In this document: positions 22,035 to 40,396 of the stretch, in pieces
Position numbering within the stretch: the first letter of the stretch is position 1
How the letters are laid out: every line of letters begins with the position of its first letter
Assembly: GCA_038328755.1 (NCBI GenBank)
Contig: JBBQMH010000006.1
Location: forward strand, 1-59,103
Length of the DNA: 59,103 nucleotides
Direction: 5' to 3'
Source of the DNA: Candidatus Limnocylindrales bacterium
GTDB lineage: Bacteria; Chloroflexota; Limnocylindria; Limnocylindrales; CSP1-4
The notes under the pieces: generated by a model
What the model was told of the DNA's origin: nothing
Seen by the model: only the letters and a program-made list of their open reading frames with translations
Database searches by the model: none
Program-made: the position numbers and the translations under genes

Positions 22035-23740
<1,706 letters not shown>

Positions 23741-23744
<4 letters not shown>

Positions 23745-24898: not shown

Positions 24899-25032
24899 CA
24901 GCGCCACCCGTGTCGATGGGGCATCCGTGCAGTCAGGACACGACGCTTGGGCGTCGACCGCGGGCCCCACTTGCGGGCTATTACCTCCTGCCAGACGGCC
25001 TGAGCGGCCCTGCCAGGTGGACCCTAGTCGCA

Positions 25033-25118
25033 GGCCCAAAGGTCACAAAGGGCTCGGCCTGCGGCGCGCCCCCGCCGCTCGCAGCCCGGTTCCGGACTCT
25101 CCGGATGACCCTCGGCCC
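25033..25118. promoter_or_regulatory. Two DosR-box-like sites in the divergent hydrogenase/vor promoter
   Basis: 25033-25046 (reverse complement GTGACCTTTGGGCC) and 25105-25118 ATGACCCTCGGCCC. Confidence 0.55.
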
Positions 25119-25189: not shown

Positions 25190-25468
25190 ATGATCGTCGC
25201 ACTGAAGCGCGCCGCGGCTGCAACGGCCGACGAGCCGCCCTTGAGTTGGACTCCCCTCGCCATCGCGCGGGATCGATGCAAGGGCTGTGAACTCTGTATC
25301 GGCGCCTGCCCGCACGGCGTGCTTGCCCTTGAGGTCGGGGCGGTCAACCGCCTTGGCTACCACCCGATCCAGCTCACCGACGCTGCGGGCTGCACGAGCT
25401 GCGCGCTCTGTGCCCGGGTCTGCCCTGACGCAGTCTTCACCGTGTACGCGCCACGAAAGGAGGCCTGA
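25190..25468 (+). CDS. 2x[4Fe-4S] ferredoxin-like delta subunit of 2-oxoacid:ferredoxin oxidoreductase
   Basis: [12 protein letters not shown] and [12 protein letters not shown]. Confidence 0.9.
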
Positions 25469-25469
25469 C

Positions 25470-26558: not shown

Positions 26559-27352
26559 CCACCGACAGGCTCGTACACGGGGCTGAGCGGGGGCGAATCA
26601 TCGCGACTCGACCCGCCCTTCTCACGGACCGGTCCACCCATTACTGCCCGGGATGCGGGCATGGAGTCGTTCACCGGCTCATCGCCGAGCTCCTGGGCGA
26701 CCTCGGACTCGCCGAGCGCACGATCGCGGTCGCGCCCGTTGGCTGCTCCGTCTTCGCCTACGACTACCTCGACGTCGATTGGATCGAAGCACCACATGGG
26801 CGAGCGCCGGCCGTCGCGACCGGCGTCCGACGGGTCCAGCCGGACGCGTTCGTGCTGATGTACCAGGGCGACGGCGACCTTGCCGCGATCGGTACGGCCG
26901 AGATCATCCACGCGGCTGCGCGGGGCGAGCGGATCACCGGGGTCTTCGTCAACAACGGGATCTACGGAATGACCGGCGGCCAGATGGCACCAACGACGCT
27001 GGTCGGACAGAAGACGACCTCATCGCCCGAGGGTCGGGACCCGCGGCTGGTCGGAGAGCCACTCCCGATCACGGAGATGCTCGCCATCCTTCCCGGTGTT
27101 GCCTACGCAGCCCGTGGCACCCTGGCCGACGCGGCATCGATCGGCAAGTTGCGGGCAATGCTCAAGCGGGCGATGCAGATGCAACTGGATGACGAGGGCT
27201 TCGCGATCGTCGAGGTGCTCGCCAACTGCCCCGTCGGCTGGAACATGACCGCGCAGCAGTCGATCGACCATCTCAAGGACGTAGCCGAGACCTACCCGGT
27301 CGGAGTGATCGTCGACCGGCCGAAAGCCCGAGCCGCATCCCCGGAGGCGTGA
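26555..27352 (+). CDS. 2-oxoacid:ferredoxin oxidoreductase beta (TPP-binding) subunit
   Basis: [22 protein letters not shown]...[11 protein letters not shown]; ATGA overlap. Confidence 0.92.
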
Positions 27353-27912
27353 CCATGGAACAATCGACCGTCTTTGCCGGCTTCGGCGGGCAGGGAATCC
27401 TGTTCGCCGGCACGGTCCTGGCCCGCGCGGCGACCGCGGAGGGCATGGAAGTCCTCTGGATTCCGTCCTACGGCCCCGAGATGCGCGGCGGGACCGCCTC
27501 CTGCACGGTCATCGTGGCCGATGAGCCAATCGGCTCGCCGATCGTGGATCACGCCGACGCGGTCGTTGCACTCAACCCGCCGTCCCTCGCGAAGTTCGAG
27601 CCGATCGTGGCGCCGGGTGGGCTCCTCGTCGTGAACACCAGCCTGATCGAAGCTGAGCCATCGCGGGAAGATCTGTCGCAGGTCGCGCTGCCATGCACAG
27701 CTCTGGCAAAGGCCGCCGGCGATGATCGCCTCGTCAGCGTCGTCGCGCTGGGTGCGCTCCTGGCACGCCGACCATTTGTTCCGATCCAGGCCGTTCGCGA
27801 TGCCCTCGCGACGATCCTCGAAGCGAAGGGATCGGCGCTCCTCGAGGCGGACCTGGCGGCGCTCGATGCCGGGTTCAAGGCGGCCATGGAGGGCGCACCA
27901 AGCCCGGCGTAG
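27349..27912 (+). CDS. 2-oxoacid:ferredoxin oxidoreductase gamma subunit
   Basis: AGFGGQG, PSYGPEMRGG. Confidence 0.92.
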   Translation: MTMEQSTVFAGFGGQGILFAGTVLARAATAEGMEVLWIPSYGPEMRGGTASCTVIVADEPIGSPIVDHADAVVALNPPSLAKFEPIVAPGGLLVVNTSLIEAEPSREDLSQVALPCTALAKAAGDDRLVSVVALGALLARRPFVPIQAVRDALATILEAKGSALLEADLAALDAGFKAAMEGAPSPA

Positions 27913-27989: not shown

Positions 27990-30900
27990 GTGCCGACCGC
28001 CGACCCCGTACCGGACGCGCCAGCCGCCGCGCAGGACAACCCCGAGGCCTACATCGCGCGTGACCGGCGTCGAGCGCTGTCGGCCGGCGTGGAGCTGCCC
28101 GACCGGGTCAGCGGGTCGGCGCTCTTCGCGGACATCAGCGGGTTCACGCCCCTGACCGAGGCCCTCGCCAACGAACTTGGCCCCCAGCGCGGTGCCGAGG
28201 AGCTCACGGTCAACATCGGCCGCGTCTTCCAGGCGGTCATCGGCGAACTCGATGCCTTCGGCGGCGATGTCATCTACTTCTCGGGCGACGCGATCACGTG
28301 CTGGATCGATGGTGACGACGGAACACTGGCGTGCGCCGCGGCAATCGCCATGCAGGAGGCGATCGGTCGAACCGGCAACGTCGTGACGCCCGGCGGTTCC
28401 GAGGTGAAACTCGCGATGAAGGTCGCCATCGCGGTCGGCGATGCCCGGCGGTTCATCGTCGGCGATCCAGAGAGCCAGCTCATCGACGTCCTGGCGGGCC
28501 GCCTCATCGACGATCTTGCCGCCGCGGAGCACTTCGCCCAGAAAGGCGAGGTCGTGCTTGAGCCGTCGGCGATCCGGCGACTTGGGGACCGGGTATCACT
28601 CGGCGAGCTGCGTCATGACGAGGAGACCGATCGGACCTACGCGGTCCTCGAGCAGCTTCACGTGGCAGTCCCGAGAACACCGGTGGTGGAGCCCCCTCCC
28701 CTCTCCGAGGATCTCGTTCGCTCCTGGCTGCTGCCGCCCGTCTTCGAACGGATCCGCACGGGACGCGGTGAGTTCCTGACCGAGCTCCGGCCCGCCATCC
28801 CGGTCTTCGTGCGGTTCACCGGGATCGACTACGACAACGATCCCGACGCGATCCCCCAGCTCGATGAGTTCGTCCGCGGGGCGCAGAAGATCATGTCCGG
28901 CTACGGCGGCAACGTCCTGCAGCTGACGCTCGGCGACAAGGGTGCCTACCTGTACGGCGTCTTCGGATCGCCCATCGCTCACGAGGACGATGCCGCGCGG
29001 GCGGCCGGTGCTGCCCTTGAGTTGCGCGACCTGGAAAAATCCACCGCGGCACGCGAGATCCAGGTCGGGGTCACGCGCGGGACCCTTCGCAGTGGCACAT
29101 ACGGCCATGAGATGCGGCGGACCTTCGTCTGCCTGGGCGACGAGGTCAACCTCTCGGCGCGCCTGATGTCCGCGGCACCGCCGGGTCGGATCTATGTCAG
29201 CCAGCGCATCCGGGAGGGGGCTGGAGACGGCTTCATCTGGGAGCAGCTGCCTGACATGAAGGTCAAGGGCAAGGCCCAGCCCGTGGCGGTCTACTCGCTG
29301 GGCGGATCCCTCGAGCGCTCGTCACGCCGCAAGACGCGGTTCGAGCTTCGCCTCGTCGGGCGCAAGGCCGAACTGGAACAGCTGACCTCCGGCCTCGAGA
29401 CGGCCCTCCAGCATCGAGGCCAGATCGTTGGTATCGCGGCCGAGGCTGGCCTCGGAAAGTCGCGGCTCGTCGCGGAGTTCGTCCGGGCAGCCCGGCGACG
29501 CGGCATCTTCGTGGCCTTTGGTGAGTGCCAGGCGTTTGGCACCAATACCGGGTACTTCGTCTGGCGCGAGATCTGGCGACGGCTGTTCCGGCTCGAGGAC
29601 GGCGACTCCGAGGCCGCCCAGATCGCGCAGGTCGAGGCGGAACTGGCGGCCATCGATCCCGGCTACGTCGCTCGTGCGCCGCTGCTCGACGACCTCCTCG
29701 AGCTCCCGATCCCGGACAACGACCTCACTCGCAGCTTCGATCCGAAGCTCCGCAAGGCATCACTCGAGGATCTGCTCACTGGCTGCCTGCGCGCTCGCGC
29801 GGCCACCGAACCGATCGTGGTGGTCCTGGAGGACTGCCACTGGATCGACGAGCTGTCGCGGGACCTGCTGCAGGTGCTGGCGCGAGCGTCCGGAGACCTG
29901 CGGCTCCTGTTCCTTCTGGCCTATCGACCCGCCGCCGAGAAGGGCGGGGGCCTTGGCCTCGAGCGGCAACAGAACCTGGCCGAGATCGAACTGGATCACC
30001 TCGACGATGCCGAGGCAGCCGAAGTCGTTCGATCGAAGCTCGAGCAGGTCCTCGGTCAGGGCGAGACACCCTCGGACGAGCTCGTGCAGCTCGTGACGGA
30101 GCGGGCCGGCGGCAACCCGCTCTATGTCGAGGAGCTGGTGAGCTTCATCGCCAGCAAGCAGATCGACCTGCACGATCGTGCCGCGATGGCCGATCTACAT
30201 CTGCCGGAGAGCCTCCAGACCCTGATTCTCAGCCGGATGGACACGATCGCCGAGGATGCCCGGCGCTCCATGAAAGTCGCCAGCGTGATCGGGCGCGTCT
30301 TCGAAGCGCCGATGCTGCCCGGAGCCTATGCCGAGCTCGGAACCCTGGATGACGTCCTTGGGCATCTCGAGACCCTGCGGACGGCCGACCTCGTGGGCCT
30401 CGACCGGGCGGCCGACCTGGCCTACCTGTTCAAGCACGCGGTGACCCAGGAGGTCGCCTACGACAGCATGCCGTTCTCCGTTCGCGCGAACCTTCACGGC
30501 CGCGTCGGCGCCTACATCGAAGCGCGTGATCCGGACGAGATCGATCGCCATCTCGACCTGCTCGCTCACCACTACTGGCTGAGCGACGACAAAACGAAGA
30601 AGGTTGAGTATCTCGGTCGCGCTGCGGAGGCGGCTCGGGGCTCGTTTGCGAACGCCGCGGCCATTGGCTACTACGAGCGACTCATTCCGCTCCTCGATGG
30701 GAGTGAGCGGGTCGCGGCTTCCATCAACCTGGGGGAAGTCCTCCAGCTGGTCGGCGACATGCCCCGCGCCGAGACAGTCGTCGGCGAGGCACGCGAGATG
30801 GCGGTGCAGTCCGAGGACGTCGCGAACACCGCACGGTGTGACCATTCCCTCGCCGAGTCCGCGCGCCGTCAGGGACGGTTCGACGACGCGGAGGAACGGC

Positions 30901-31694
30901 TCGCGGCCGCACGGGAGGGGTTTGCGGCGAGCGACGACGATGCCGGCCTCGCTCTCGCGCTCCAGGTGACGGGCACCGTCAACGCCCAGCGAGGCAACCT
31001 CGACGCGGCGCGCGCGCACTACGAGGCGAGCCTCGCCATCCGCGAGCGGATCGGGGATGCCTCGGGCGTTGCGGCCGTGACGAACAACCTTGGAATCGTC
31101 GCCCAGCACGCCGGCGACGCCGATCGGGCGCGGGCGTTGAGCGTTCGCGCGCTCGAGCTGTACGAACGCCTCGGCGAGCCGCGACGGATCTGCTCGTGCG
31201 AGATCAACCTCGCCTGGATGGATGCCCAAGCGGGCCGCAACGATGAAGCCCTGGCCCACGGCGAACGCGCGGTCGACCTCGCCCGGCAGGTCGGCGATAC
31301 GCTCAACCTTGCGATCGCCCAGAACAACATCGGCGACGCGCTCCGCGACCTTGGACGACTGGACGAGGCCGGCAGGGCCTACGCCGCTGCCGTCGAGGCC
31401 TATCGCGACCTGGGCGACACGGGACCGCTCATGGCGCTCCTGGAGGACGTGGCGGTCCTGAGCGCCATGCGGCACCGACACGCCGACGCGTTCGTGCTCG
31501 TCGGGGCCGCGGATTCGCTGCGGGCGGCGCTCGGTTCTCCCCGCGCCGCAGCCGCTGAGGCCGCTCTGATGGAGCGACTCGAGGTCGCCAGGTCTGAGGT
31601 CGCTGACGAGGCGGCCGAACGGGCGCGCGGGGCGGGCAGAGCCTTGACGCCCACCGCGGCCATCGATCGAGCGCTTGAACTCGCGGCGACCTAG
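27990..31694 (+). CDS. Tandem class III nucleotidyl cyclase + STAND/AAA NTPase + TPR protein (soluble adenylyl cyclase-like architecture)
   Basis: C1 FADISGFT...FSGDA; C2 ELRP...GDKG...VNLSARLM; Walker A AEAGLGKS, Walker B VVVLEDCHW; GNPLYVEE; C-terminal TPRs. Confidence 0.92.
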   Translation: MPTADPVPDAPAAAQDNPEAYIARDRRRALSAGVELPDRVSGSALFADISGFTPLTEALANELGPQRGAEELTVNIGRVFQAVIGELDAFGGDVIYFSGDAITCWIDGDDGTLACAAAIAMQEAIGRTGNVVTPGGSEVKLAMKVAIAVGDARRFIVGDPESQLIDVLAGRLIDDLAAAEHFAQKGEVVLEPSAIRRLGDRVSLGELRHDEETDRTYAVLEQLHVAVPRTPVVEPPPLSEDLVRSWLLPPVFERIRTGRGEFLTELRPAIPVFVRFTGIDYDNDPDAIPQLDEFVRGAQKIMSGYGGNVLQLTLGDKGAYLYGVFGSPIAHEDDAARAAGAALELRDLEKSTAAREIQVGVTRGTLRSGTYGHEMRRTFVCLGDEVNLSARLMSAAPPGRIYVSQRIREGAGDGFIWEQLPDMKVKGKAQPVAVYSLGGSLERSSRRKTRFELRLVGRKAELEQLTSGLETALQHRGQIVGIAAEAGLGKSRLVAEFVRAARRRGIFVAFGECQAFGTNTGYFVWREIWRRLFRLEDGDSEAAQIAQVEAELAAIDPGYVARAPLLDDLLELPIPDNDLTRSFDPKLRKASLEDLLTGCLRARAATEPIVVVLEDCHWIDELSRDLLQVLARASGDLRLLFLLAYRPAAEKGGGLGLERQQNLAEIELDHLDDAEAAEVVRSKLEQVLGQGETPSDELVQLVTERAGGNPLYVEELVSFIASKQIDLHDRAAMADLHLPESLQTLILSRMDTIAEDARRSMKVASVIGRVFEAPMLPGAYAELGTLDDVLGHLETLRTADLVGLDRAADLAYLFKHAVTQEVAYDSMPFSVRANLHGRVGAYIEARDPDEIDRHLDLLAHHYWLSDDKTKKVEYLGRAAEAARGSFANAAAIGYYERLIPLLDGSERVAASINLGEVLQLVGDMPRAETVVGEAREMAVQSEDVANTARCDHSLAESARRQGRFDDAEERLAAAREGFAASDDDAGLALALQVTGTVNAQRGNLDAARAHYEASLAIRERIGDASGVAAVTNNLGIVAQHAGDADRARALSVRALELYERLGEPRRICSCEINLAWMDAQAGRNDEALAHGERAVDLARQVGDTLNLAIAQNNIGDALRDLGRLDEAGRAYAAAVEAYRDLGDTGPLMALLEDVAVLSAMRHRHADAFVLVGAADSLRAALGSPRAAAAEAALMERLEVARSEVADEAAERARGAGRALTPTAAIDRALELAAT

Positions 31695-31849: not shown

Positions 31850-34800
31850 GTGTCCGTGCCCACACGCGAGGTCCCGGCGTCCCCCCGCCGTGTCACCTCG
31901 TCCGTCGCGTCCCATCGACTCCCCGGCACCACGCGACGGAGCGGCGGTGCGCTACTCCTGATCTGGTCTCTCCTTGCCCAACTGACGATCCTGGCCGTGC
32001 CATTGGCGGCACCGACCGTCGTGCTGGCCGCTCCGCCGGTAAGCGTCGTCGTCAGCACGCCGGGGGTCTGGGTGGGAGCCGGGACGGGCACCACGACCGT
32101 CACCCACAACGGGGGTGGCGGCATCGCCGAGTTCCAGTACTCCTACGACAACCCGGCGCACTCGGGAGCGACCGGCTCCTGGTCGTTCGCGACGATCGCG
32201 GGAGCGACCGGGACAGTGTCCCTTCCCTACTCGTTCACTGGATTTCACGCGTACTTCCAGGTCCAGGTCGGGTTGGAGGCCTACGTGAAGCACGACGGGA
32301 CAGTGTCGAGCGCGCCGCTCGAAACAGGTGGACCGGTCAACTGCTGCACGACCCCTTCGGCGGGGTTCTCGTATTCGGGGACGGCCACGCTGTCCGTGGC
32401 CAGCGGCGACGAATACGGATTCACGATCACCGGCAGCAACGGCGACAGTGATGCGCGCCTCATTGGGACCCTGACGGTCGGGCAGGAGGTCGTCGTCAAC
32501 GGCGGCTTCGAGGCGCCGCAGGTGGCGAGCCCGAACTTCGATAGCTACGGGACTGGCTCGACGGCAGTCGCGGGCTGGACGGTCGGCGGTGACTCGATCG
32601 ATCACATCGGCGCCACCTATTGGAACGCCGCCGAAGGGGTGCAATCCATCGATCTGGACGGCAGCGCGCCCGGCGCTGTGTCCCAGACGCTGACGACCAT
32701 CCCGGGCCGTGCGTACAACCTGCGTTTCGCGTACTCCGCGAACCCTGATCTGCCGGGCATCACGCCGGGGATGATCATCACGGTCGACGGCGCCCAGATC
32801 GGCGGTTCCGTCACCCACATCGCCACCGCGCGCCCGCTCGACTGGACGACCGGGACTCGGACATTCACAGCGACCGGAACCTCTACGGTCCTGTCGTTCG
32901 CGTCCACCGACGGTTCCGAGGCTCGGGGAATCGCGCTCGACGCCGTCTCGGTCATCCCGGATGTTACGGTCGCGCCGCCCGCCAACACGGAAAATGCCCC
33001 GCTCCTCTATCGCGCTGCTCCAACGGCCGGTGGCATCCACGTCGAAGGAGTTCTTGGGGGCGCGGCGAACAGCACGTTCTCCGTCCTGTTCCTGACGTCG
33101 ACGACCGGCTGCGGTACCGACGCTCAACTCGTGGACCCCGTGGGCGGACCGACCGTGACCGGCATCTCGACCGATGCCCAGGGCCGGGCGAATTTCTCCG
33201 CACAGATCGCCATCTCCCCGAGTTCGACGCCGGCGATGTACATCGCCGCCAAGGTGACAGGCCCGGGACAGAGCAACCTCGGCCCGTGCATCGTGGTCAC
33301 CGACCCCAACGACACGTGGACCAACGCGATCGAGGTCGGTGCCAATGGCTCCACGACGGGCTACCTCGACGACTACGGTCGATCGCGCTGGTACAAGTTC
33401 CCGGTCGCCCCTGGCGGCGTCGTGAGCGTGTCCGTGGCCGGAACCCCGGGCGGGGATCTCCCGGCTGACTACGACGCCTTCCTGTTCTCCGATATCTCGA
33501 AGGCCTACAACGCCCTGACGGGCCCGAATGCCCAGAGCCTGGCGCAGCTCACCGCGCAGTTCGCGGGCAATCCGTCGTACATCGGCAACCCGAGCTACAT
33601 CGGCAACCCGAGCTACATCGGGAATCCCTCGTATATCGGCAACCCGTCGTACATCGGCAACCCGAGTTACATCGGCAACCCGAGCTACATCGGGAATCCC
33701 TCGTATATCGGCAACCCCAGCTACATCGGCAACCCTTCGTACATCGGCAACCCGAGCTACATCGGCAACCCGAGCTACATCGGGAATCCCTCGTATATCG
33801 GCAACCCGAGCTACATCGGAAACCCGTCGTACATCGGGAACCCGTCGTACATCGGGAACCCGTCGTACATCGGCAACGAGATCTTCGGGGCGTATTCGAC
33901 GGCGGCCCGGAACAGCCTCGTTGGGTGGAACGTCGAGGAGGGCACCGGTCCGGCCAGCATCCCCGCCAACACCTGGACGAACGACGGGTACTACTACGTG
34001 CACGTCACCGGCAAGAACGGCGTATACGATCTCCAGAATACGTTCACGATCGCGATCACGACCCAGCCAAGCGCCTGTTCCGGCGTCGTCGCGTCAGGCG
34101 CCGCTCCGGTAGCGGTCGGCTCCACAAGCACCACGCTCATCCTCTGGGACCGCGACCGGATCACTGGTACGGATGACGAGAAGAACACCCTCGCGCTCAA
34201 GCTGAGCAGCCTCGCGGCAGCCACGGGCGGCACGGTCGTCAACGTCAGCGGGAACGGCCGCGTCGCGACCCTCCAGGCCCAGGCCACCGCCAACCCGTCC
34301 TGCGTCTACGCCAAGAATCTGGTCGCGTCGGCGATTCGCGATGTCGTGCAGTCGTACCGCAACCCGAACCTGAAATATGTCGTCCTCGTCGGCGGCGACT
34401 CGTCGATCCCGTTCTTCCGCTACCCGGACCCGTCCGACCTGGCGCCGGAATCGTGGTACGTGCCGCCGGTGGCGGCAACCTCGCCGTCCGAGGCCAGCCT
34501 CCGCGATAACTACGTCCTCGGACAGGACGAGTACGGAGCCACCACCATCCTGTCGCTCGGCGGGACCCGATTCCCGATTCCCGACCTCGCGGTGGGCCGA
34601 CTGGTGGAGACCGCCGCCGAGGCGTCACACATGATCGATAGCTACGTCACGGGTGCGTCCGTGAACGTCGCGACGCCACGCACGTCGCTCGTGACCGGGT
34701 ATGACTTCATCGCCGACTCTGCTGTCTCCGTCAAGGACCAGCTGGACGCTGGCACGGGCGCGGTTGGTGACAGCCTCATCAACGACGGGTGGACTGCGGA

Positions 34801-37800
34801 CCAGCTCCGCGCGAAGCTCCTTGGGCCGTCCCGCTACGACCTCGTCTACCTGGCCGGCCATTTTGACGCGAACTCCCTCCTCGCCGCGGACTTCAACTCG
34901 ACGATCAATGCGTCGGAGCTGGCACCGGCCTCGGTGAACCTCACCGGGACCCTGGTTTGGAGCACGGGCTGTCACGCCGGCTACAACGTCGTCAACACGG
35001 ATGGGATCGCCGGCGTGACGCAGACACTGGACTGGGCGGAGGCCTTGGCCCAGAAGGGCGCGACCCTCGTGGCCGGGACCGCATTCCAGTACGGCGACGA
35101 TGAGCTGATCGAGTACAGCGAGCGGATCTACGCCGAGTTCGCCCATCAGCTTCGGGTCGGCAGCGGCCCCGTCGCCGTCGGAACCGCCCTCGTACGCTCG
35201 AAGCTCGCCTACCTGGCCGCGACCCCGGACATCAAGGGCATGCACGAAAAGGCGCTCCTGACCGCCGCCGTCTTCGGCCTCCCGATGTTCTCGGTCGACA
35301 TGCCGGGCAGCCGCGACACGAGCGGCACCGGCGGCTCGATCGTTCCCGCCACGAACAGCACCCTCGGTGTTCCGTCCGCTGACATCACGATCGACACCTC
35401 GGGTGTCGACGCGAAGACTTCCACCACCAACCCACCCGCGAACTACCTCTCGGGTCCCGACGGCGTCGCCTCGAACCCCGGCGAGCCGGCCCTGCCGCGC
35501 TTCGTCAAGAACGTTGGGGTTCCCGGCAAGGTGCTCCGCGGTGTCGGATTCCGGAGCGGCATCTTCACCGAGACGACCGGCGTGGTGCCCCTGATCGGTG
35601 CCCCCGGCACCGAGTTCGGCGGATCACAGACGCCGTTTACCGCAACCACCTGGTTCCCGACCCGGATGTGGACGGCAAGCTACTTCGCCGACCTGGCCGG
35701 GGGATCGACATCGCTCCTCGTGACTCCGGTCCAACACAAGGTGACGAACCCGGGTGACACGACGGCGAGCCGGCGGGCCTACTCCGCGCTCGGCCTTCGC
35801 CTGTTCTACGCCGACGCCTCGAGCGCAACGGCTGGGCAGGCGTCCGCCCCGACGATCTCGGGTGTCAGCACGAGCGAGTCCGGCTCGGACGTGACCTTCA
35901 ACGCGACCGTGCAGAGCACCGACTCGAACGGGGCGAACAACGCCAGATCCGTCTGGGTCACGTACACATTCGGCAACACCGGGTGCGACTGTTGGCAGTC
36001 GGTCGACCTTGTCCAGTCGCCGAGTGATCCAACACTCTGGTCGAAGACGCTGACGCTGACCGGCGGTTCTGCCTCCGACCTGCGCTTCATCGTCCAGGCA
36101 GCCAACGCGGCGGCCCTCGTCGGGATCGACGACAACTCGGCGGCCTACTACGCCCTCACCGGCGCTCCGGTCGCGACCCAGGACCCGACGGCGCTCGCTA
36201 TCAACGCTCCGTCCGCCGGTACGTCCGGTACGTATGGCGACGACGCAACGATCTCGGCGACGCTCACCAGCAATAGCCTGCCGTTGGCCGGTCGTGTCGT
36301 CAGCCTCCGCCTCGGCTCCACGGTCCAGACCGCGATCACCGGTGCCGGGGGCGTCGCGTCCGTGACCCTCCCGATCTCGGCGACACCCGGGGTGGCCCAG
36401 GTCGCGGCGACCTATGCAGGCGACACGACGACGAAGCCGTCGAGCGCTTCAGTCGCGTTCACCGTCGCCAAGCTCGGGACGAGCCTCACCCTGATGACGC
36501 CGCCGAGCGGGGTCCGCCCGGGCGCGGACAGCGGCGTGTTCGCGACCCTCACGGACGCCAACAATCAGCCGCTCAGCGGCCGATCCATCATCTTCGTCGT
36601 CGGCGACAGCACGCACCCCGGCCTCGCGCGCCAGGTCTCGACGGGCGCCGACGGTCGAGCCTCGCTTGGTTCCGTGCCGACGCTCCCGGCGGGCGGGTAC
36701 GCCGTGTCGGCGTTCTACAACGGAACGGTCACGCTCGACCCTTGGGCCACGTCGCCGTCAATGATCTCGTTGACGAACCCGATCTACAACGCAAGTTCGG
36801 CAGGCCCAGGAGCCCTGCCGGTCAAGGGCGACCAGACCATCACGTTCAGCGCGCCGGCGACGCACACCTATGGTGATGCCGACTTCGGGATCTCCGCGAC
36901 CGCCAGCTCCAGCCTCGTGGTTACGTTCACGTCCGAGACGTTGGGTGCCTGCACCCTGAGCGCTTCGACCGTCCACATCGTGGCTGCGGGCACCTGCACG
37001 ATCCGCGCGGATCAGGCTGGCGGCACGTACTTCGAGCCGGCGCCGCCCGTCACGCGCTCCTTCTCGATCGCCCAGCGGGCACTGACGGTCACGGCCAACA
37101 ACGAGGCCAAGAAATACGGGGCCACGCTCTCCCTCGGCGGGGCAGCGTTCTCGACCGGCGCCGGGCAGCTCGTCAACGGCAACACCGTGACCGGCGTCAC
37201 GCTCGGGAGTGCCGGCACTCCCGCCGCTGCAGCCGTCGGGACCTACCCGATCACCGTCAGTGGGGCGGTCGGCACGGGTCTTGGCAACTACACCATCACC
37301 TACATAGATGGCACGTTGTCCGTCGTCATCCCGGACCGCTACGTAACGAAGCTCAACACGACCCTCAATGTCCTGGCTTCGGGCATCTTCGGGGCTACGA
37401 GCGGAACGGTCACCGGTGTCAGCGTGACCACGACACCCAAGGGTTCCGTCACGATCCAACCGAACGGATCCTTCACGTTCGTGCCCAAGACCGGGTTCAG
37501 CGGCAGCGACACGTTCGCCTATCGGGCGACGATCGGTGGGGTCCTCCAACCCGCGGTAACGGTGACGGTCTACGTGATCGGCAACGGCGGGACGAGCTGC
37601 TCCGGGTGCAACTTCTCGGGCCTTGACCTCCGTGGCTACAAACTGTCCGGCGGCGCCTTCAGCAGCGCCAACTTCAGTGGCGCACATCTGACTGGTGTCA
37701 ACCTGAGCGGGTCGAACATGGCAGGTGCCAACTTCAACGACGCGACGCTTGCTGGGGCCAACCTCAGCGGGGCAAACCTGTCGAGCGCCACCTTCCAGAA

Positions 37801-38188
37801 TGCCGACCTCACGGGTGCCAGCCTCGCGGGTTCCAACCTCTCGAAAGCGAACTTCACGAACGCGCTCCTCACGAACGCGAACCTGAGTGGCGCGAACCTG
37901 TCGAGCTCCATCCTTGCCGGCGCTCAGCTTCCGGGAGCCAACCTCACCGGCAGCAACGTCTCGAGCGCCAACCTGAACGGTGCCAACCTCCAGGGTTCGA
38001 CGGCGCAGGGCACGAACATGTCGAAGTCGACGTTCATCGGCGCCAACGCGTCGCACGTCAACTTCAAGGGCTCGAACCTGTCGAAGGTGAACTTCACCAA
38101 CGCCAACCTGTCCAACTCCATCCTGACCGGCACCAATCGGTCGGGCGCGATCTTCGCCGGAGCGAACCTGACCGGGGTCGTCTATTAG
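31850..38188 (+). CDS. 2112-aa secreted multidomain protein: DUF642/choice-of-anchor C-like, PPC-like domain with (GNPSYI)17 insert, peptidase C25-like domain, Ig-like/MBG domains, C-terminal pentapeptide repeats
   Basis: RBS GAGGAG and signal-peptide-like N-terminus; VVNGGFE...SIDLDG; YVVLVGGD, PDLAVGRL, LAGHF, TGCHAG; LTVTANNEAKKYG...NYTITY; A(N/D)LxG repeats. Confidence 0.85.
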   Translation: MSVPTREVPASPRRVTSSVASHRLPGTTRRSGGALLLIWSLLAQLTILAVPLAAPTVVLAAPPVSVVVSTPGVWVGAGTGTTTVTHNGGGGIAEFQYSYDNPAHSGATGSWSFATIAGATGTVSLPYSFTGFHAYFQVQVGLEAYVKHDGTVSSAPLETGGPVNCCTTPSAGFSYSGTATLSVASGDEYGFTITGSNGDSDARLIGTLTVGQEVVVNGGFEAPQVASPNFDSYGTGSTAVAGWTVGGDSIDHIGATYWNAAEGVQSIDLDGSAPGAVSQTLTTIPGRAYNLRFAYSANPDLPGITPGMIITVDGAQIGGSVTHIATARPLDWTTGTRTFTATGTSTVLSFASTDGSEARGIALDAVSVIPDVTVAPPANTENAPLLYRAAPTAGGIHVEGVLGGAANSTFSVLFLTSTTGCGTDAQLVDPVGGPTVTGISTDAQGRANFSAQIAISPSSTPAMYIAAKVTGPGQSNLGPCIVVTDPNDTWTNAIEVGANGSTTGYLDDYGRSRWYKFPVAPGGVVSVSVAGTPGGDLPADYDAFLFSDISKAYNALTGPNAQSLAQLTAQFAGNPSYIGNPSYIGNPSYIGNPSYIGNPSYIGNPSYIGNPSYIGNPSYIGNPSYIGNPSYIGNPSYIGNPSYIGNPSYIGNPSYIGNPSYIGNPSYIGNPSYIGNEIFGAYSTAARNSLVGWNVEEGTGPASIPANTWTNDGYYYVHVTGKNGVYDLQNTFTIAITTQPSACSGVVASGAAPVAVGSTSTTLILWDRDRITGTDDEKNTLALKLSSLAAATGGTVVNVSGNGRVATLQAQATANPSCVYAKNLVASAIRDVVQSYRNPNLKYVVLVGGDSSIPFFRYPDPSDLAPESWYVPPVAATSPSEASLRDNYVLGQDEYGATTILSLGGTRFPIPDLAVGRLVETAAEASHMIDSYVTGASVNVATPRTSLVTGYDFIADSAVSVKDQLDAGTGAVGDSLINDGWTADQLRAKLLGPSRYDLVYLAGHFDANSLLAADFNSTINASELAPASVNLTGTLVWSTGCHAGYNVVNTDGIAGVTQTLDWAEALAQKGATLVAGTAFQYGDDELIEYSERIYAEFAHQLRVGSGPVAVGTALVRSKLAYLAATPDIKGMHEKALLTAAVFGLPMFSVDMPGSRDTSGTGGSIVPATNSTLGVPSADITIDTSGVDAKTSTTNPPANYLSGPDGVASNPGEPALPRFVKNVGVPGKVLRGVGFRSGIFTETTGVVPLIGAPGTEFGGSQTPFTATTWFPTRMWTASYFADLAGGSTSLLVTPVQHKVTNPGDTTASRRAYSALGLRLFYADASSATAGQASAPTISGVSTSESGSDVTFNATVQSTDSNGANNARSVWVTYTFGNTGCDCWQSVDLVQSPSDPTLWSKTLTLTGGSASDLRFIVQAANAAALVGIDDNSAAYYALTGAPVATQDPTALAINAPSAGTSGTYGDDATISATLTSNSLPLAGRVVSLRLGSTVQTAITGAGGVASVTLPISATPGVAQVAATYAGDTTTKPSSASVAFTVAKLGTSLTLMTPPSGVRPGADSGVFATLTDANNQPLSGRSIIFVVGDSTHPGLARQVSTGADGRASLGSVPTLPAGGYAVSAFYNGTVTLDPWATSPSMISLTNPIYNASSAGPGALPVKGDQTITFSAPATHTYGDADFGISATASSSLVVTFTSETLGACTLSASTVHIVAAGTCTIRADQAGGTYFEPAPPVTRSFSIAQRALTVTANNEAKKYGATLSLGGAAFSTGAGQLVNGNTVTGVTLGSAGTPAAAAVGTYPITVSGAVGTGLGNYTITYIDGTLSVVIPDRYVTKLNTTLNVLASGIFGATSGTVTGVSVTTTPKGSVTIQPNGSFTFVPKTGFSGSDTFAYRATIGGVLQPAVTVTVYVIGNGGTSCSGCNFSGLDLRGYKLSGGAFSSANFSGAHLTGVNLSGSNMAGANFNDATLAGANLSGANLSSATFQNADLTGASLAGSNLSKANFTNALLTNANLSGANLSSSILAGAQLPGANLTGSNVSSANLNGANLQGSTAQGTNMSKSTFIGANASHVNFKGSNLSKVNFTNANLSNSILTGTNRSGAIFAGANLTGVVY
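33566..33871 (+). repeat. 17 x 18-bp in-frame tandem repeat encoding GNPSYI
   Basis: 306 bp read unit by unit; all 17 units translate identically while codons vary. Confidence 0.98.
37600..38185 (+). repeat. Pentapeptide repeat region (right-handed beta-helix type)
   Basis: ANFSG/ANLSG/SNLSK/ANFTN units to the C-terminus; start boundary approximate. Confidence 0.9.
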
Positions 38189-38220: not shown

Positions 38221-39957
38221 TCAGCGAATCCCGGCCAGCTCCTGGAGCGAATGCCAGTAGGCGAGGCGGTCGTCCTGCGTGGCGTTGATCTCGGGCGTTC
38301 CGGCGGGGTCCTTGCTGAAGTGCTGGCGGAAGCGGCCCTCGGTCCGGGCAAAGGCGAGGAAGTCGACGGGAGTTCCGTCGGGTGACTTGGCCCAGTCCTC
38401 CTTGAGCGCCGGATTGCCCTGCAGGGAGAGGCGCTCGGCCATCGACTCGCCGCGGCGCGGGTCATAGGTGAAGAGCGGGAAGGCTCGCGAGTCGGCGGCC
38501 AGTTTCGCCTGCCGCGTTGACGCGTCGTCTCCGATTCCGTGCTCGGGCTGGCAGGGCGTGTAGGCCACGATCACGGCCGGGCCGGGATACTCGTTGGCCT
38601 CGATGATCGAACGGTAGAAGTGGTTGATGTGGGCCGGCGTCGTCTGGGCGACGTAGACCTCGCCATGCGCCATCAGGATCCGGGCCAGCTCCTTGCGCCG
38701 CTCGGGCCGCCCGTGGAGGGCCGTGCCGTAGGCGGACATCTTGGTCACCTGGCCGCCGAAGGATGCCGTGGACGCCTGTCCCCCGGTGTTCGAGTAGACC
38801 TGCGTGTCGAGGACGAGGACCTTGATGTCGGAGCCCGAGGCCACCATCCGGGACAGGCTCTGGAAGCCGATGTCATACATCGCGCCGTCGCCGCCCAGGA
38901 CCCACAGGCGCCGATCCTCGTGCCCGCCCGCGTCCCAGCGCGCCCGGACGCCGAGTGCAACCGCGGGAGCATTCTCGAACAACGAGTTGGTCCACGGCAC
39001 GCGGTATGGGTTGAACGGATAGGTGCTGCCGTAGACGGTGTTGCAGCCGGTCGCGGCCACGATCCCCATCGACTCGGGCCCGTGGAGCTGGCGCGTCGCC
39101 GCCACGAGCATGCGGATGGCCGTAGCTTCGCCGCATCCTGCGCAGGATCCGGCGCCGCCGACGTAACCGATAGCGTGCTCGCCGAGCATCAGGTCGGCGA
39201 GGGCCTTGTCATTGCGGTATTCCGGCGGGGTCATCGGAAGCGAGCGGAAGAAGCTGATATCGCGTTCGTAGCGATCCAGGGTTGACTCGCCGCTGGGGGT
39301 TTCCTCAGCGACCTTGTCGATCATGATCAGGGCGTCATGCCCGAGCGCGGCACAGACCTCCACGCACTCGGCGCAACCCTTGCAGTGGACGGGGTCCACG
39401 AAGATCCCGAACTGACCGCGGTCGATGCCGCGACGCGCCGGAACCTCGCCGTATTTCTGCGTGGCGGCGAAGTGTGACGCCGCAGTACGGGTAGCCAGCG
39501 TCGCATCGGGCCGGTCGGCGGCGAAGGTCGTGATCCGCCCGTCGAGCTCCGACTCCGGAACCACGACCCCGAGGATTGCCGTGTCTGGGCAGGCGTTGAC
39601 GCAGGCCATGCAGCCCACACACTTTTCGGCCAGCAGGTCCGGAATGCGCGGCGCGAGACGGGAGAAGTCGCGGACTGCCGACGTTGCCGGCGGAATGATG
39701 CTGCGGGCCAGGCCCACGTCGGCGGGCAGTTCCCGATCAGCGATGCCGCGGCGATAGGCGGGAACCACGCTGCGCCCGAACTCCTCGACGTAGGCATCGA
39801 TATCCAGCAACGGCGGCGCGATCGTCGCCAGGCGTTCCAGTTGCAGCTCCTTGAGCTCACCGGCGTCCTTCAGGAACGGGCTGTCGTCCGGGTGCGGGTC
39901 ATGCGTCGCGGGTACCTGCGCCGTGACGGCGCGGTCGGTCGTCGGCGCCTCAGACAT
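38221..39957 (-). CDS. Pyruvate:ferredoxin oxidoreductase, C-terminal half (ferredoxin + TPP domains)
   Basis: CVGCMACVNACP, CKGCAECVEVC, CAGCGE, ATGC, NSLFEN, GGDGAMYDIG, YSNTGGQ. Confidence 0.9.
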   Translation of the reverse strand: MSEAPTTDRAVTAQVPATHDPHPDDSPFLKDAGELKELQLERLATIAPPLLDIDAYVEEFGRSVVPAYRRGIADRELPADVGLARSIIPPATSAVRDFSRLAPRIPDLLAEKCVGCMACVNACPDTAILGVVVPESELDGRITTFAADRPDATLATRTAASHFAATQKYGEVPARRGIDRGQFGIFVDPVHCKGCAECVEVCAALGHDALIMIDKVAEETPSGESTLDRYERDISFFRSLPMTPPEYRNDKALADLMLGEHAIGYVGGAGSCAGCGEATAIRMLVAATRQLHGPESMGIVAATGCNTVYGSTYPFNPYRVPWTNSLFENAPAVALGVRARWDAGGHEDRRLWVLGGDGAMYDIGFQSLSRMVASGSDIKVLVLDTQVYSNTGGQASTASFGGQVTKMSAYGTALHGRPERRKELARILMAHGEVYVAQTTPAHINHFYRSIIEANEYPGPAVIVAYTPCQPEHGIGDDASTRQAKLAADSRAFPLFTYDPRRGESMAERLSLQGNPALKEDWAKSPDGTPVDFLAFARTEGRFRQHFSKDPAGTPEINATQDDRLAYWHSLQELAGIR

Positions 39958-40396
39958 CGGAACCGCCCTGGGGAAGGACCTCGAGCTCTTCGGTGATGGC
40001 GTGGATCAGGTCCGTCGTGGACAGGACGCCGATCGGGATCGTCGGATCCGCATCGTCGACCACCACGAGGCGGTGGATCTTGTGCCGTTCCATCTTTCGA
40101 GCCGCATCGTCGAGGCTCATCGAGCAGTGCACCGTGATGGCGGGGCTGGTCATGAGGTGGCGGACGGCGAGGCCCGGCCAGTTCGACCAGAGGTACTCGG
40201 TGGCCCGAGCCCGGGTGAGGTCAGTCTGGGATAGAACGCCCACCAGGGCCCCCACGGAGTCGACCACAGGTAGCCCGTGAACGTGACGGTGGTCCATCAG
40301 CGCGGCGGCCTCGGTCAAGGTGGCGTCGGCGCGAATGACGATCGGTTCGAGCGCCATGCGGTCGCCGACGGTGGCGGTCTTCGTCGATTGAGTCAT
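39950..40396 (-). CDS. CBS-pair domain protein
   Basis: Two CBS repeats (LPVVD...GVLSQTD; LVVVD...GVLSTTD); overlaps both neighbours. Confidence 0.92.
   Translation of the reverse strand: MTQSTKTATVGDRMALEPIVIRADATLTEAAALMDHRHVHGLPVVDSVGALVGVLSQTDLTRARATEYLWSNWPGLAVRHLMTSPAITVHCSMSLDDAARKMERHKIHRLVVVDDADPTIPIGVLSTTDLIHAITEELEVLPQGGSDV

What the first reader, a model, noticed from the sequence alone, without database searches (positions are those of the whole stretch)
33566..33877. Seventeen perfect GNPSYI hexapeptides held constant at protein level inside a secreted protease-like protein
Seen: 17 tandem 18-bp units all encode Gly-Asn-Pro-Ser-Tyr-Ile with no amino-acid change. The DNA differs at synonymous sites (Gly GGC/GGG/GGA, Asn AAC/AAT, Pro CCG/CCC/CCT, Tyr TAC/TAT). 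Ser uses both codon blocks (TCG and AGC/AGT), and one variant, GGGAATCCCTCGTATATC, recurs at units 4, 8 and 13. This argues for selection on the exact peptide rather than recent slippage. The array lies in a loop of a PPC-like sandwich (between DYDAFLF and GYYYVHV) just before the protease domain. Known: read as I-G-N-P-S-Y it fits the left-handed beta-helix consensus [LIV]-[GAED]-X-X-[STAV]-X. Inference: it is either a uniform beta-solenoid or amyloid-like rod of about 6 rungs with Tyr ladders, or a multi-copy core-peptide cassette released by proteolysis.
Basis: partly seen in the sequence, partly recalled or inferred. Interest (0 to 1): 0.9.

Follow-up and report, generated by a model that had tools for sequence, protein, structure and literature searches.

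The report
Perfect peptide array beside a gingipain-like protease
A secreted bacterial protease-like protein carries 17 identical six-residue peptides in a row; this is the local form of an undescribed, strongly selected feature of a large protein family, and its function is still unknown.

Summary
Window 33566-33871 encodes 17 perfect GNPSYI units in 9 DNA variants, and every difference is synonymous.

The array sits in a loop of a PPC-like beta-sandwich, just before a gingipain-like (C25) domain with an invariant His/Cys pair.

It is not a one-off insert. In 126 of 150 top homologues where both flanks could be read, the same loop holds a tandem array, usually pentapeptides such as PSVFS. The median insert is 92 aa. 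On a 204-sequence tree the unit changes at least 105 times and the period at least 10 times. Within arrays, peptides stay uniform while codons are scrambled.

Thirteen loci keep (PSVFS)4-PDAY[S/A/T]-(PSVFS)13 at 98-100% peptide identity. Their protease domains are only 59-80% identical.

AlphaFold2 gives no structure for either a hexamer or a pentamer array. The beta-helix reading is therefore not supported.

A cytoplasmic cyclase-AAA-TPR gene lies next to the array gene in 52 of 68 loci.

My best guess, at 0.35, is a cis-encoded cassette of identical recognition or cleavage motifs for the adjoining protease.

The parts
31850..38188 (+). Gene for the 2112-aa multidomain secreted protein that carries the array (start codon not verified)
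   Evidence: ORF list. Domains.
31940..32029 (+). N-terminal hydrophobic segment (aa about 31-60) after an RR motif; signal peptide or membrane anchor (inferred)
   Evidence: The only Kyte-Doolittle windows of 1.6 or more in the protein lie here.
32492..32953 (+). DUF642 / choice-of-anchor C domain (aa 215-368)
   Evidence: Pfam PF04862 E 2.8e-12. NCBIfam TIGR04362, 129.9 bits against a cut-off of 120.
33314..33565 (+). First half of the PPC-like beta-sandwich, plus two helices (aa 549-557 and 564-572) that lead into the array and end in ...LTAQFA
   Evidence: Pfam PPC E 0.056, below cut-off. AF2 strands and helices with pLDDT 86-94. Foldseek to PPC and collagen-binding domains, TM 0.69-0.77.
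33566..33871 (+). The array: 17 x GNPSYI (aa 573-674), 9 DNA variants, 72-bp higher-order period
   Evidence: AF2 pLDDT 28-42.
33872..34063 (+). Partial unit GN, exit helix (GNEIFGAYSTAARNS...) and second half of the PPC-like sandwich (...GYYYVHVTGKNG...)
   Evidence: AF2 helix 197-210 and strands 211-259 of P0001, pLDDT 84-94. Conserved 'AQ.R' and 'NTWN..G.FYV' motifs in 47- and 39-sequence alignments.
34325..35215 (+). Gingipain-like (Peptidase_C25) catalytic domain, aa 826-1122
   Evidence: Pfam PF01364 E 3.9e-8, 33.4 bits against a cut-off of 23. Foldseek RgpB 1cvr E 7e-11. pLDDT mostly above 90.
34859..34861 (+). His1004 (LAGHF), putative catalytic His
   Evidence: Invariant column H525 of P0001 in 47 sequences and H521 in 39 sequences. 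The catalytic role is inferred.
34970..34972 (+). Cys1041 (STGCH), putative catalytic Cys
   Evidence: Invariant column C562 of P0001 and C558. The catalytic role is inferred.
27990..31694 (+). Neighbouring gene: 1234-aa cytoplasmic cyclase-homology + AAA_16 + TPR (STAND-like) protein, a conserved partner of the array gene
   Evidence: Pfam. No TM-like window. A homologue lies next to the array gene in 52 of 68 loci. Best NCBIfam is TIGR03903, 205 bits, below the cut-off of 705.

Best explanation
WHAT IT IS (shown).
- The GNPSYI array is the local version of a hallmark of a large, unnamed family of secreted multidomain proteins.
- The constant core of the family is a PPC-like beta-sandwich followed by a gingipain-like (C25) cysteine-protease domain.
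- One loop of the sandwich is framed by two conserved helices (...L.AE[F/Y]A before, F[S/A]SAQ.R after).
- That loop always carries about 18 head-to-tail copies of one short peptide, usually 5 or 6 residues. A unit typically has one aromatic residue, usually a Pro and Ser/Thr, and almost never Lys/Arg/His.
- Each array is kept uniform at the peptide level by purifying selection while its codons drift apart. Different lineages carry different units.

HOW IT MOST LIKELY WORKS (inferred).
- The loop is flexible and unstructured on its own.
- Each unit is one copy of a short linear motif that a specific peptide-binding site reads. The most likely reader is the substrate cleft of the protease domain about 90 residues downstream in the same chain.
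- The array would then be a cis-encoded tandem substrate or pseudosubstrate cassette, held beside the protease in the way the inhibitory loop of the RgpB propeptide is held.
- Cutting the array would nick the prodomain-like sandwich and release identical penta- or hexapeptides.
- Whether those peptides are then used, for example sensed by the neighbouring TPR-cyclase protein, is a further and less likely step.
For: 1. Family-wide feature. phmmer found 2712 relatives at E<=1e-3, of which 1003 at E<=1e-30. In 126 of the top 150 both flanks could be located; 122 of these carry a period-5 or period-10 array and 4 a 7-12-residue repeat. In 73 of 80 named genome loci the array lies between both anchors, and 5 of the other 7 show array sequence at a contig end or frameshift.

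2. Selection on every unit.
- Window: 308 differing codon pairs, 0 residue changes.
- 72 family arrays: 16863 same-residue against 3415 different-residue codon pairs. 15 arrays have no residue difference at all.
- Examples: 16 units / 16 DNA variants / 2 peptides (L031); 17 / 17 / 3 (L038).

3. The array can be the most conserved part of the protein. In 13 loci labelled as three phyla, 78 pairs show array peptide identity of 0.98-1.00 and array DNA identity of about 0.74. The protease-domain flank has median identity 0.69 (minimum 0.59) and the N flank is 0.39-0.60 in the 25 pairs with the lowest protease-flank identity that were listed. Generic stickiness would not hold Val in all 17 units when other lineages use Ala, Ile, Thr or Met there.

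4. Lineage-specific units: 82 distinct units and at least 105 changes on the 204-row tree. The window's hexamer clade (11 rows) is sister to a PPSYA/PPAYA pentamer clade. This is the pattern expected if motif and reader co-evolve.

5. No fold of its own. pLDDT is about 30 for the hexamer array and about 27 for the PSVFS array, while the flanks are confident.

6. Position. A beta-sandwich sits directly N-terminal to a domain whose best structural match is RgpB (1cvr, and 4ief = complex of RgpB pro- and mature domains). RgpB is made as a zymogen blocked by a propeptide inhibitory loop (PMC13366090; only the start of the abstract in the search listing was seen).

7. His/Cys are invariant in 47 and in 39 aligned sequences, so the protease is probably active.

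8. Unit junctions and the array's entry share one grammar. The aromatic residue is followed by S/A/T in 69 of 77 cases and then by P/G/N in 67 of 77. The lead-in ...EFA / ...QFA continues that grammar in phase.
Against: - No cleavage has been observed, and no peptide product is known.
- Characterised C25 enzymes cut after Arg or Lys (recalled). Only 1 of 78 distinct 5/6-mer units contains K, R or H. If this domain kept that specificity the array would resist it, which would favour the uncleaved-loop rival.
- I could not map the S1 pocket.
- One copy would be enough for a pseudosubstrate. The tight length distribution (median 92 aa, interquartile 82-98, 25 of 126 exactly 92) and the fixed position of the odd unit PDAY[S/A/T] look more like a structural or length constraint.
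- No spacer or recognition sequence lies between units. No maturase-type gene is a conserved neighbour.
- The AF2 coil may only mean that the array folds as an oligomer or on a partner.
Confidence: 0.35

Rival explanations
1. Uncleaved flexible multivalent loop. The array stays in the mature protein as a roughly 100-residue, uncharged or acidic, protease-resistant 'sticker-and-spacer' loop with one aromatic residue every 5-6 residues. It binds a periodic or hydrophobic ligand (a polysaccharide chain, a surface, unfolded substrate, or copies of itself), or it sets reach and spacing for the protease.
For: - AF2 coil for two array types.
- Exactly one aromatic residue in 73 of 78 distinct 5/6-mer units. 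Basic residues in 1 of 78 but acidic residues in 30 of 78. That fits resistance to an Arg/Lys-specific protease next door.
- Narrow length distribution, median 92 aa.
- The same protein has a carbohydrate-binding-type DUF642 / choice-of-anchor C domain.
Against: - Generic stickiness or reach does not explain why every residue of every unit is held constant with scrambled codons.
- It does not explain why PSVFS is kept at 98-100% peptide identity across proteins whose flanks are 59-80% identical, while other lineages use A, I, T or M at the same place.
- It gives no role to the conserved TPR-cyclase neighbour.
Confidence: 0.25
2. Ordered rod. The array folds into a regular beta-solenoid (a left-handed beta-helix for hexamers, a pentapeptide-type helix for pentamers) or a cross-beta / oligomeric assembly with aromatic ladders.
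For: - I-G-N-P-S-Y fits the hexapeptide consensus: Pfam Hexapep 29.5 bits against a cut-off of 27. There are weak LpxD and GlmU matches.
- Uniform units, a conserved copy number and a fixed odd unit are what a packed repeat fold would need.
- Two helices frame the array and could run back along a rod.
Against: - AF2 gives pLDDT of about 30 and no strands for the hexamer array, and about 27 for a pentamer array, with 47- and 39-sequence alignments.
- Period is 5 in 168 of 204 rows, 6 in 25 and longer in a few, with at least 10 switches. No single solenoid geometry is conserved.
- PSVFS-type arrays in the seven family members scanned do not match the Pfam pentapeptide models.
- There is a Pro in most units (64 of 78).
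- The NCBIfam acyltransferase matches are far below their cut-offs.
Confidence: 0.12
3. Scaffold for post-translational modification. The Ser/Thr-Pro-rich units are sites for O-glycosylation or another modification, producing a bottle-brush that shields or anchors the protease.
For: S or T in 67 of 78 unit types and P in 64 of 78. The protein is extracellular. There are weak Extensin_1 matches on PSVFS arrays, 27-29 bits against a cut-off of 105.
Against: - Some unit types have no Ser, Thr or Pro, for example VGGNAF.
- No modifying enzyme is a conserved neighbour.
- N-P-S is not an N-glycosylation sequon (established rule, recalled).
- Modification sites rarely need every other residue fixed.
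Confidence: 0.08
4. Neutral low-complexity insert made by replication slippage, with no function of its own.
For: In the window's own clade the order of DNA variants and of S/A units differs in every genome, so units are gained, lost or converted. A 72-bp block duplication is visible in the window.
Against: - All 308 differing codon pairs are synonymous.
- Synonymous divergence between units is 0.2-0.8 with 1-3 peptide variants per array.
- The array is present at one site across at least three phyla, with conserved length.
- The array is better conserved than the catalytic domain in 13 loci.
Confidence: 0.02
5. Assembly artefact: the array or its length was created by mis-assembly of short reads.
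For: No Logan contig of runs X1-X4 spans the whole array. One contig of X1 shows a join that skips 347 bases and one that goes back 265 bases, as repeats often produce.
Against: - Contigs of three studies match the array edges and inner pieces exactly.
- Eight other genome records, several on 2-Mb contigs, carry 11-20 units of the same peptide at the same site.
- Only the exact number 17 remains unverified.
Confidence: 0.01

Closest known systems
Gingipain RgpB zymogen (Peptidase C25 with an N-terminal beta-sandwich prodomain and inhibitory loop), Porphyromonas gingivalis
   Same: The catalytic domain is the best structural match (1cvr E 7e-11; 4ief) and reaches Pfam PF01364. A beta-sandwich lies directly N-terminal to it, with a long projecting loop. 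The His/Cys pair is conserved.
   Different: - Sequence identity is only 14-16%.
- The sandwich here is PPC / collagen-binding-like.
- The loop is a tandem array of about 100 residues without Arg or Lys, instead of a single loop bearing an Arg (the RgpB detail is recalled; PMC13366090 was seen only as the start of its abstract).
- The hosts are Chloroflexota, Actinomycetota and Pseudomonadota MAGs, not Bacteroidota.
PPC + Peptidase_C25 proteins of archaea and bacteria (ESM Atlas cluster; Pfam PF04151 + PF01364)
   Same: Same two-domain core. The nearest Atlas cluster scores 0.93, with PPC on 99% and C25 on 77% of its members.
   Different: Nothing in that cluster's description or in Pfam mentions a tandem array inside the PPC domain. 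I did not inspect its members.
Multi-core ribosomal peptide precursors: fungal Kex2-processed repeat proteins (ustiloxin type) and multi-core microviridin precursors
   Same: Many copies of one short core in one polypeptide. Cores are uniform within a gene and differ between lineages (PMC7329392 and PMC5934393; only the starts of the abstracts were seen).
   Different: - Those precursors are small dedicated peptides with spacers or cleavage sites and a leader, and they sit in clusters with modifying enzymes.
- Here units abut directly, inside a folded domain of a 2112-aa enzyme.
- The only conserved neighbour here is a cyclase-AAA-TPR gene.
Left-handed beta-helix hexapeptide-repeat proteins (LpxA/LpxD, GlmU; Pfam PF00132)
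   Same: The window's unit fits [LIV]-[GAED]-X2-[STAV]-X and touches the Pfam cut-off.
   Different: No predicted helix. Most family members have period 5. Acyltransferase family scores are an order of magnitude below their cut-offs.
Perfect protein repeats with divergent codons: polyubiquitin and the RNA polymerase II CTD heptads (recalled, not looked up)
   Same: Identical units at the protein level with many synonymous differences. In the CTD, a disordered Tyr/Ser/Pro-rich array is read unit by unit by other proteins.
   Different: Those are eukaryotic and cytoplasmic or nuclear. Here the array is extracellular, bacterial, inside a domain loop, and its unit sequence changes between close lineages.
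TOMM system kinase/cyclase fusion protein (NCBIfam TIGR03903), for the neighbouring gene
   Same: The cyclase-AAA-TPR part aligns over residues 298-1212 at E 1.6e-60.
   Different: The score is 205 bits against a cut-off of 705, so it is not a member. There is no kinase domain and no TOMM genes nearby.

Membership tests
Left-handed beta-helix hexapeptide repeat (Pfam PF00132) | Hexapeptide consensus [LIV]-[GAED]-X2-[STAV]-X recognised by the family model | tested here: met
   Hexapep 29.5 bits against a cut-off of 27, E 5.3e-7, although no single stretch passes on its own.
Left-handed beta-helix hexapeptide repeat (Pfam PF00132) | The repeat region folds as a beta-helix | tested here: not met
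   AF2 with 47 sequences: residues 96-195 of P0001 have pLDDT below 50 (block means 28-42) and no strands.
Left-handed beta-helix hexapeptide repeat (Pfam PF00132) | Period of six kept among homologues | tested here: not met
   Period 5 in 168 of 204 rows and 6 in 25; at least 10 changes of period on the tree.
Left-handed beta-helix hexapeptide repeat (Pfam PF00132) | Trimer formation | not testable with these tools
Pentapeptide-repeat proteins (Pfam PF00805), for the pentamer arrays of homologues | Match to the A(D/N)LXX family models | tested here: not met
   No pentapeptide family hit on the seven array-bearing homologues scanned. The window protein's hits lie only at its C-terminus, aa 1915-2112.
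Peptidase family C25 (gingipain) | Family model above the curated cut-off | tested here: met
   PF01364 33.4 bits against a cut-off of 23 on aa 826-1122. Also 42.3 and 39.1 bits in two homologues.
Peptidase family C25 (gingipain) | Clan CD fold like RgpB | tested here: met
   Foldseek 1cvr E 7e-11, TM 0.58 on the target; 4ief; also CHAT and PorU.
Peptidase family C25 (gingipain) | Conserved catalytic His and Cys | tested here: met
   H1004 and C1041 are invariant in 47 and in 39 aligned sequences. Their equivalence to the gingipain dyad is inferred, not superposed.
Peptidase family C25 (gingipain) | Arg/Lys specificity (acidic S1 pocket) | not tested
   The profile search of PDB sequences did not reach gingipain.
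PPC domain (Pfam PF04151) | Family model above the curated cut-off | tested here: inconclusive
   14.8 bits against a cut-off of 25.9, E 0.056, on the N-terminal half only. The domain is split by the array.
PPC domain (Pfam PF04151) | PPC / collagen-binding-type beta-sandwich fold | tested here: met
   Foldseek 5sv5 TM 0.69; 1nqd, 2o8o and 1nqj TM 0.74-0.77 on the target. The Atlas cluster has PPC on 99% of members.
Multi-core RiPP precursor | Tandem identical core peptides | tested here: met
   17 of 17 identical units. Arrays are uniform across the family.
Multi-core RiPP precursor | Spacer, recognition or cleavage sequences between cores | tested here: not met
   Units abut directly with no spacer.
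Multi-core RiPP precursor | Co-located modifying enzymes | tested here: not met
   Clustering of ORFs from 68 loci finds a single conserved neighbour, the cyclase-AAA-TPR gene. Genes farther than 6 kb away were not examined.
Multi-core RiPP precursor | A released or modified peptide product | not testable with these tools
   Needs mass spectrometry.
RRNPP-type oligopeptide signalling | Cytoplasmic TPR receptor encoded beside a secreted precursor of a 5-7-residue peptide | tested here: inconclusive
   A TPR protein without TM segments is adjacent in 52 of 68 loci and the units are 5-6 residues long. However, it has a cyclase-AAA-TPR architecture and no RRNPP family was matched.
RRNPP-type oligopeptide signalling | Receptor co-varies with the peptide | tested here: inconclusive
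   At matched AAA-domain identity, TPR identity is 7-14 points higher for same-unit pairs in five of seven bins. In 18 phylogenetically independent pairs there is no support (medians 1.69 against 1.36, p 0.42).

The most novel reading that the evidence does not exclude
The array is a polyprotein of lineage-specific penta- or hexapeptide signals.
- The protease domain in the same chain cuts out about 18 identical oligopeptides outside the cell.
- The peptides are taken up and bind the TPR sensor of the cytoplasmic cyclase-AAA-TPR protein encoded next door.
- That protein answers with a cyclic-nucleotide signal.

The frequent switches of unit sequence between close lineages would then be 'pherotypes'. 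This would be a new architecture of bacterial peptide signalling: precursor and processing protease fused, with a STAND-cyclase receptor. It would be spread over Chloroflexota, Actinomycetota and Pseudomonadota.
Probability: 0.12. Interest if true: 0.95.

Novelty: new variant of a known kind. Interest (0 to 1): 0.8.

Why it matters
The finding leads to an undescribed hallmark of a large protein family.
- The family has 1003 clusters at E<=1e-30 in metagenomes and 528 stretches encoding relatives among 185,579 species genomes.
- Source databases call its members 'hypothetical' or name them only after accessory domains.

A loop of about 90-100 residues is made of one short peptide repeated about 18 times. 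It is held identical residue by residue while the codons drift apart. In places it is better conserved than the catalytic domain, yet the unit is replaced wholesale between lineages. That pattern is rare in bacteria.

It points to a unit-by-unit reader: an enzyme cleft, a receptor or a lattice. This makes a concrete question testable with a recombinant fragment and a mass spectrometer.

If the units are released, this would be a fused precursor-protease system for small peptides, with a candidate receptor next door.

If they are not released, it is a natural example of a codon-scrambled, sequence-perfect disordered polymer. That would be of interest for repeat-protein evolution and design.

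Tried and rejected
- Left-handed beta-helix. The weak Pfam and NCBIfam matches were followed by AF2 on the window protein and on a PSVFS-type homologue. Both left the array unstructured, and the family mostly has period 5. I rejected it as the family-wide fold.
- Trimer prediction of the PPC domain with the array: no result.
- Mapping the S1 pocket onto gingipain. A profile search of PDB sequences found only chance hits, a single-sequence search found only low-complexity matches (FLVCR2, acyltransferases), and model coordinates are not in the script box. Abandoned.
- TPR-peptide co-variation. A matched-bin comparison was suggestive. A check with 18 independent pairs gave no support (p 0.42). 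The test has low power and I treat it as inconclusive.
- Paralogous 'channels'. 5 of 5 genomes searched hold one full-length copy. One of them also has a partial C25 match that does not cover the array region of the query.
- Known defence systems. PADLOC gave only weak TPR and PycC-cyclase matches for the neighbour and nothing for the core.
- Expression: no RNA holder listed. All four runs laid were contigs, so they say nothing about transcripts.
- Parts of the array without contig cover in X2-X4 say nothing either way.
- Nei-Gojobori pN/pS between units is inflated, because TCN/AGY serine switches are counted as replacement steps. The window gets pN 0.095 with no residue change. I replaced this measure with a census of same-residue against different-residue codon pairs.
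- Literature. 'GNPSYI' gave one irrelevant paper. PSVFSPSVFS, PSAFSPSAFS, PSYAPPSYA and FSPSVFSP gave none. 'peptidase C25' / 'PPC domain' / Chloroflexi / 'gingipain-like' gave nine listed papers, none of whose titles or abstract starts describes this family. I therefore found no description in print within that library.

Full report
OBSERVATION. Window 33566-33871 holds 17 head-to-tail 18-bp units that all translate to Gly-Asn-Pro-Ser-Tyr-Ile. They are aa 573-674 of a 2112-aa ORF on the + strand (31850..38188). There are 9 DNA variants and one peptide. Among unit pairs, 308 codon pairs differ and none changes the residue. Only 11-13 of 54 possible single-base changes in a unit are synonymous, so even the minimum of seven distinct synonymous states has a chance of about 5e-5. 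Moving between TCN and AGY needs a two-base change (PMC6872785; only the start of the abstract was seen). The two serine unit types are therefore old relative to the array. The recurrence of one variant at units 4, 8 and 13 is explained by a 72-bp, four-unit higher-order period. It is not separate evidence of selection.

READS. Short-read contigs of four public runs reach into the array from both sides and match inner pieces. None spans it, so the count of 17 is not independently checked.

THE PROTEIN. The only hydrophobic segment lies at aa about 31-60, after an RR motif. Downstream come the following domains:
- DUF642 / choice-of-anchor C.
- The array-bearing domain.
- A Peptidase_C25 domain (PF01364, 33.4 bits against a cut-off of 23).
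- Ig-like domains.
- A true pentapeptide-repeat C-terminus.

AlphaFold2 with a 47-sequence alignment gives mean pLDDT 78.7. It models a beta-sandwich whose chain leaves through two helices, runs through the array, and returns through a third helix. A catalytic domain follows with pLDDT mostly above 90. By Foldseek the catalytic part is nearest to gingipain RgpB (1cvr, E 7e-11; 4ief). The sandwich is nearest to PPC and collagen-binding domains of clostridial and Bacillus collagenases (TM 0.69-0.77 on the target). The ESM Atlas places the fragment beside a cluster annotated PPC + Peptidase_C25. His1004 and Cys1041 are invariant in 47 and in 39 aligned homologues.

THE ARRAY IS A FAMILY HALLMARK. 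A full HMMER scan of 1.84 billion cluster representatives found 2712 relatives, 1003 of them at E<=1e-30.
- Of the best 150, both flanking anchors could be located in 126. The other 24 are N-terminally cut fragments that start at or after the array.
- Of the 126, 113 have a period-5 repeat and 9 a period-10 (double) repeat between the anchors. Four have 7-12-residue repeats. A few are degenerate: 7 of 204 rows in the later census.
- The commonest unit is PS[V/A/I/T/M]FS. Others include P[D/E]AFS, PPSYA, GQAFS, SNAFT, PSQWS and PGSPS.
- The insert is 92 aa at the median (interquartile 82-98; exactly 92 in 25 of 126).

In one-genome-per-species collections, 528 of 577 candidate stretches encode relatives. 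The nearest are Chloroflexota / Candidatus Limnocylindria MAGs (62-75% identity). Others are labelled Gaiellaceae, Acidimicrobiia, Solirubrobacterales, Caldilineaceae, Anaerolineae, Casimicrobiaceae and Halieaceae, plus the cultured Motilibacter deserti. In 73 of the 80 loci kept, the array lies between both anchors. Hexamers exist too: GNP[S/A]YI, GNSSFI, VGGNAF, NPAAFT, NPFAVS, NPYAVT, NPDVYS and NPDAFS. Within the window's own genus the orthologous site holds GNPSYI, GNPS[Y/F][V/A/I], GGA[F/Y]TG, [G/A/P]QAFS or GTAFS.

HOW THE ARRAYS EVOLVE. A tree was built from the protease-domain flank, with the array left out.
- 204 rows carry 82 distinct units, with at least 105 unit changes and at least 10 period changes.
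- The window lies in a well-supported clade of 11 hexamer rows, sister to a PPSYA/PPAYA pentamer clade. Two other hexamer clades arise elsewhere.
- Within arrays the peptides are uniform while codons are scrambled. Synonymous divergence between units is 0.2-0.8 with 1-3 peptide variants per array. Over 72 arrays, 16863 differing codon pairs keep the residue and 3415 do not.
- Thirteen loci labelled as three phyla keep (PSVFS)4-P[D/E]AY[S/A/T]-(PSVFS)13 at 98-100% peptide identity and about 74% DNA identity. Their protease-domain flanks are 59-80% identical (median 69%), and their N flanks are 39-60% identical in the 25 pairs with the lowest protease-flank identity that were listed (78 pairs). 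There the array, its copy number and the place of its odd unit are the best-conserved part of the protein.
- The window's own clade behaves differently. Nine arrays (151 units) contain only GNPSYI and GNPAYI, but the order of DNA variants and of S/A units differs in every genome. Units turn over there, and Ser/Ala at position 4 is tolerated.
- The grammar of 78 distinct 5/6-mer units is as follows: exactly one aromatic residue in 73, Pro in 64, Ser/Thr in 67, Asp/Glu in 30, Lys/Arg/His in 1. The aromatic is followed by S/A/T (69 of 77) and then by P/G/N (67 of 77).
- The rare 7-9-residue units do carry Lys.

STRUCTURE OF THE ARRAY. AF2 leaves the GNPSYI array at pLDDT 28-42. It leaves a PSVFS array, predicted with 39 well-aligned sequences of the same type, at 26-32. 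Both flanks are confident. Together with the changing period, this removes support for a conserved beta-helix.

CONTEXT. ORFs from 68 loci were clustered (the window plus 67 loci longer than 9 kb). The only conserved neighbour is a homologue of window ORF 27990..31694. It is present in 52 of 68 loci, mostly directly upstream on the same strand. It lies downstream in 6 loci and on the other strand in 5. It is a 1234-aa protein with cyclase-homology, AAA_16 and TPR regions and no TM-like segment. Its best NCBIfam match is 'TOMM system kinase/cyclase fusion protein', far below cut-off (205 against 705 bits). PADLOC gives nothing decisive. No radical-SAM, YcaO, glycosyltransferase or similar gene recurs within 6 kb. 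The array gene is single-copy in the five genomes checked. Source databases call family members hypothetical or name them after accessory domains only. Three literature searches found no description of the family.

INTERPRETATION. What is shown is a selectively maintained, sequence-uniform array of fixed size, probably flexible, held on a helical neck beside an apparently active gingipain-like domain, with a lineage-specific unit. The strict identity of every unit, with other residues tolerated at the same position in other lineages, argues that each unit is read by a specific site and is not simply bulk material. The nearest candidate reader is the protease cleft in the same chain. The arrangement (a beta-sandwich with a projecting loop N-terminal to a C25 domain) recalls the RgpB zymogen.

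I therefore rank a cis substrate or pseudosubstrate cassette first, at 0.35. It would possibly release identical oligopeptides and nick the prodomain-like sandwich. Against it stand the near-absence of Lys/Arg (if the enzyme kept gingipain specificity), the tight length control, and the lack of any observed cleavage.

The rivals rank as follows:
- An uncleaved multivalent aromatic loop: 0.25.
- An ordered or oligomeric rod: 0.12.
- A modification scaffold: 0.08.
- Neutral slippage: 0.02.
- Assembly artefact: 0.01.

The boldest reading still allowed is a polyprotein of lineage-specific peptide signals sensed by the neighbouring TPR-cyclase protein. It fits the unit length, the unit switching and the conserved gene pair. 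Its one testable prediction here, TPR-unit co-variation, was suggestive in matched bins but not supported in 18 independent pairs. I give it 0.12.

VERDICT. The feature is undescribed and lies in a widespread family. It deserves experimental follow-up.

Noticed in passing
window 27990-31694 (+) and 52 of 68 related loci: A cyclase-homology + AAA_16 + TPR (STAND-like) gene is a conserved partner of the array gene across phyla. Between Limnocylindria genomes its core is more conserved (71-78% identity) than the array protein (about 43-51%). The TPR part is its fastest-evolving region.
   Followed up: partly
window about 37592-38185 (aa 1915-2112 of the same ORF): The C-terminus of the same protein is a canonical pentapeptide-repeat region (Pfam PF00805, E 7e-55). 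It is unrelated in sequence to the array. C-terminal and N-terminal accessory domains differ widely among family members (vWA, Kelch, PxKF, tandem-95, delta-60).
   Followed up: partly
L005/L010 (G005), L030, L032: In G005 the orthologue is frameshifted inside the protease domain. In L030 and L032 the reading frame shifts inside the array. All are from long-contig MAGs, so these may be indel errors, not real pseudogenes.
   Followed up: no
representative proteins: 24 of the 150 best representatives begin at or just after the array. This suggests that short-read assemblies often break at this repeat, so the family's arrays are under-sampled in metagenome protein sets.
   Followed up: no
window 22035-25039 (-), 25287-27912 (+), 38221-42543 (-), 42513-44189 (+): Neighbourhood genes: NiFe hydrogenase large and small (Tat-signal) subunits, two separate sets of 2-oxoacid:ferredoxin oxidoreductase subunits, and an alpha-amylase-family enzyme. 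None is conserved next to the array gene in other loci.
   Followed up: partly
window 51975-52062 and 55357-55412: Two further GC-rich tandem repeats: 24/44-bp units, and an 18-bp unit with 100% matches over 2.7 copies, reported by Tandem Repeats Finder.
   Followed up: no
L020 (record labelled Candidatus Saccharimonadales) and L061 (labelled Nitrosopumilus): Family members with typical arrays sit on contigs whose bins are labelled as Saccharimonadales or as an archaeon. On the tree they fall inside Chloroflexota or proteobacterial/actinobacterial clades, so mis-binning is the simplest reading.
   Followed up: no
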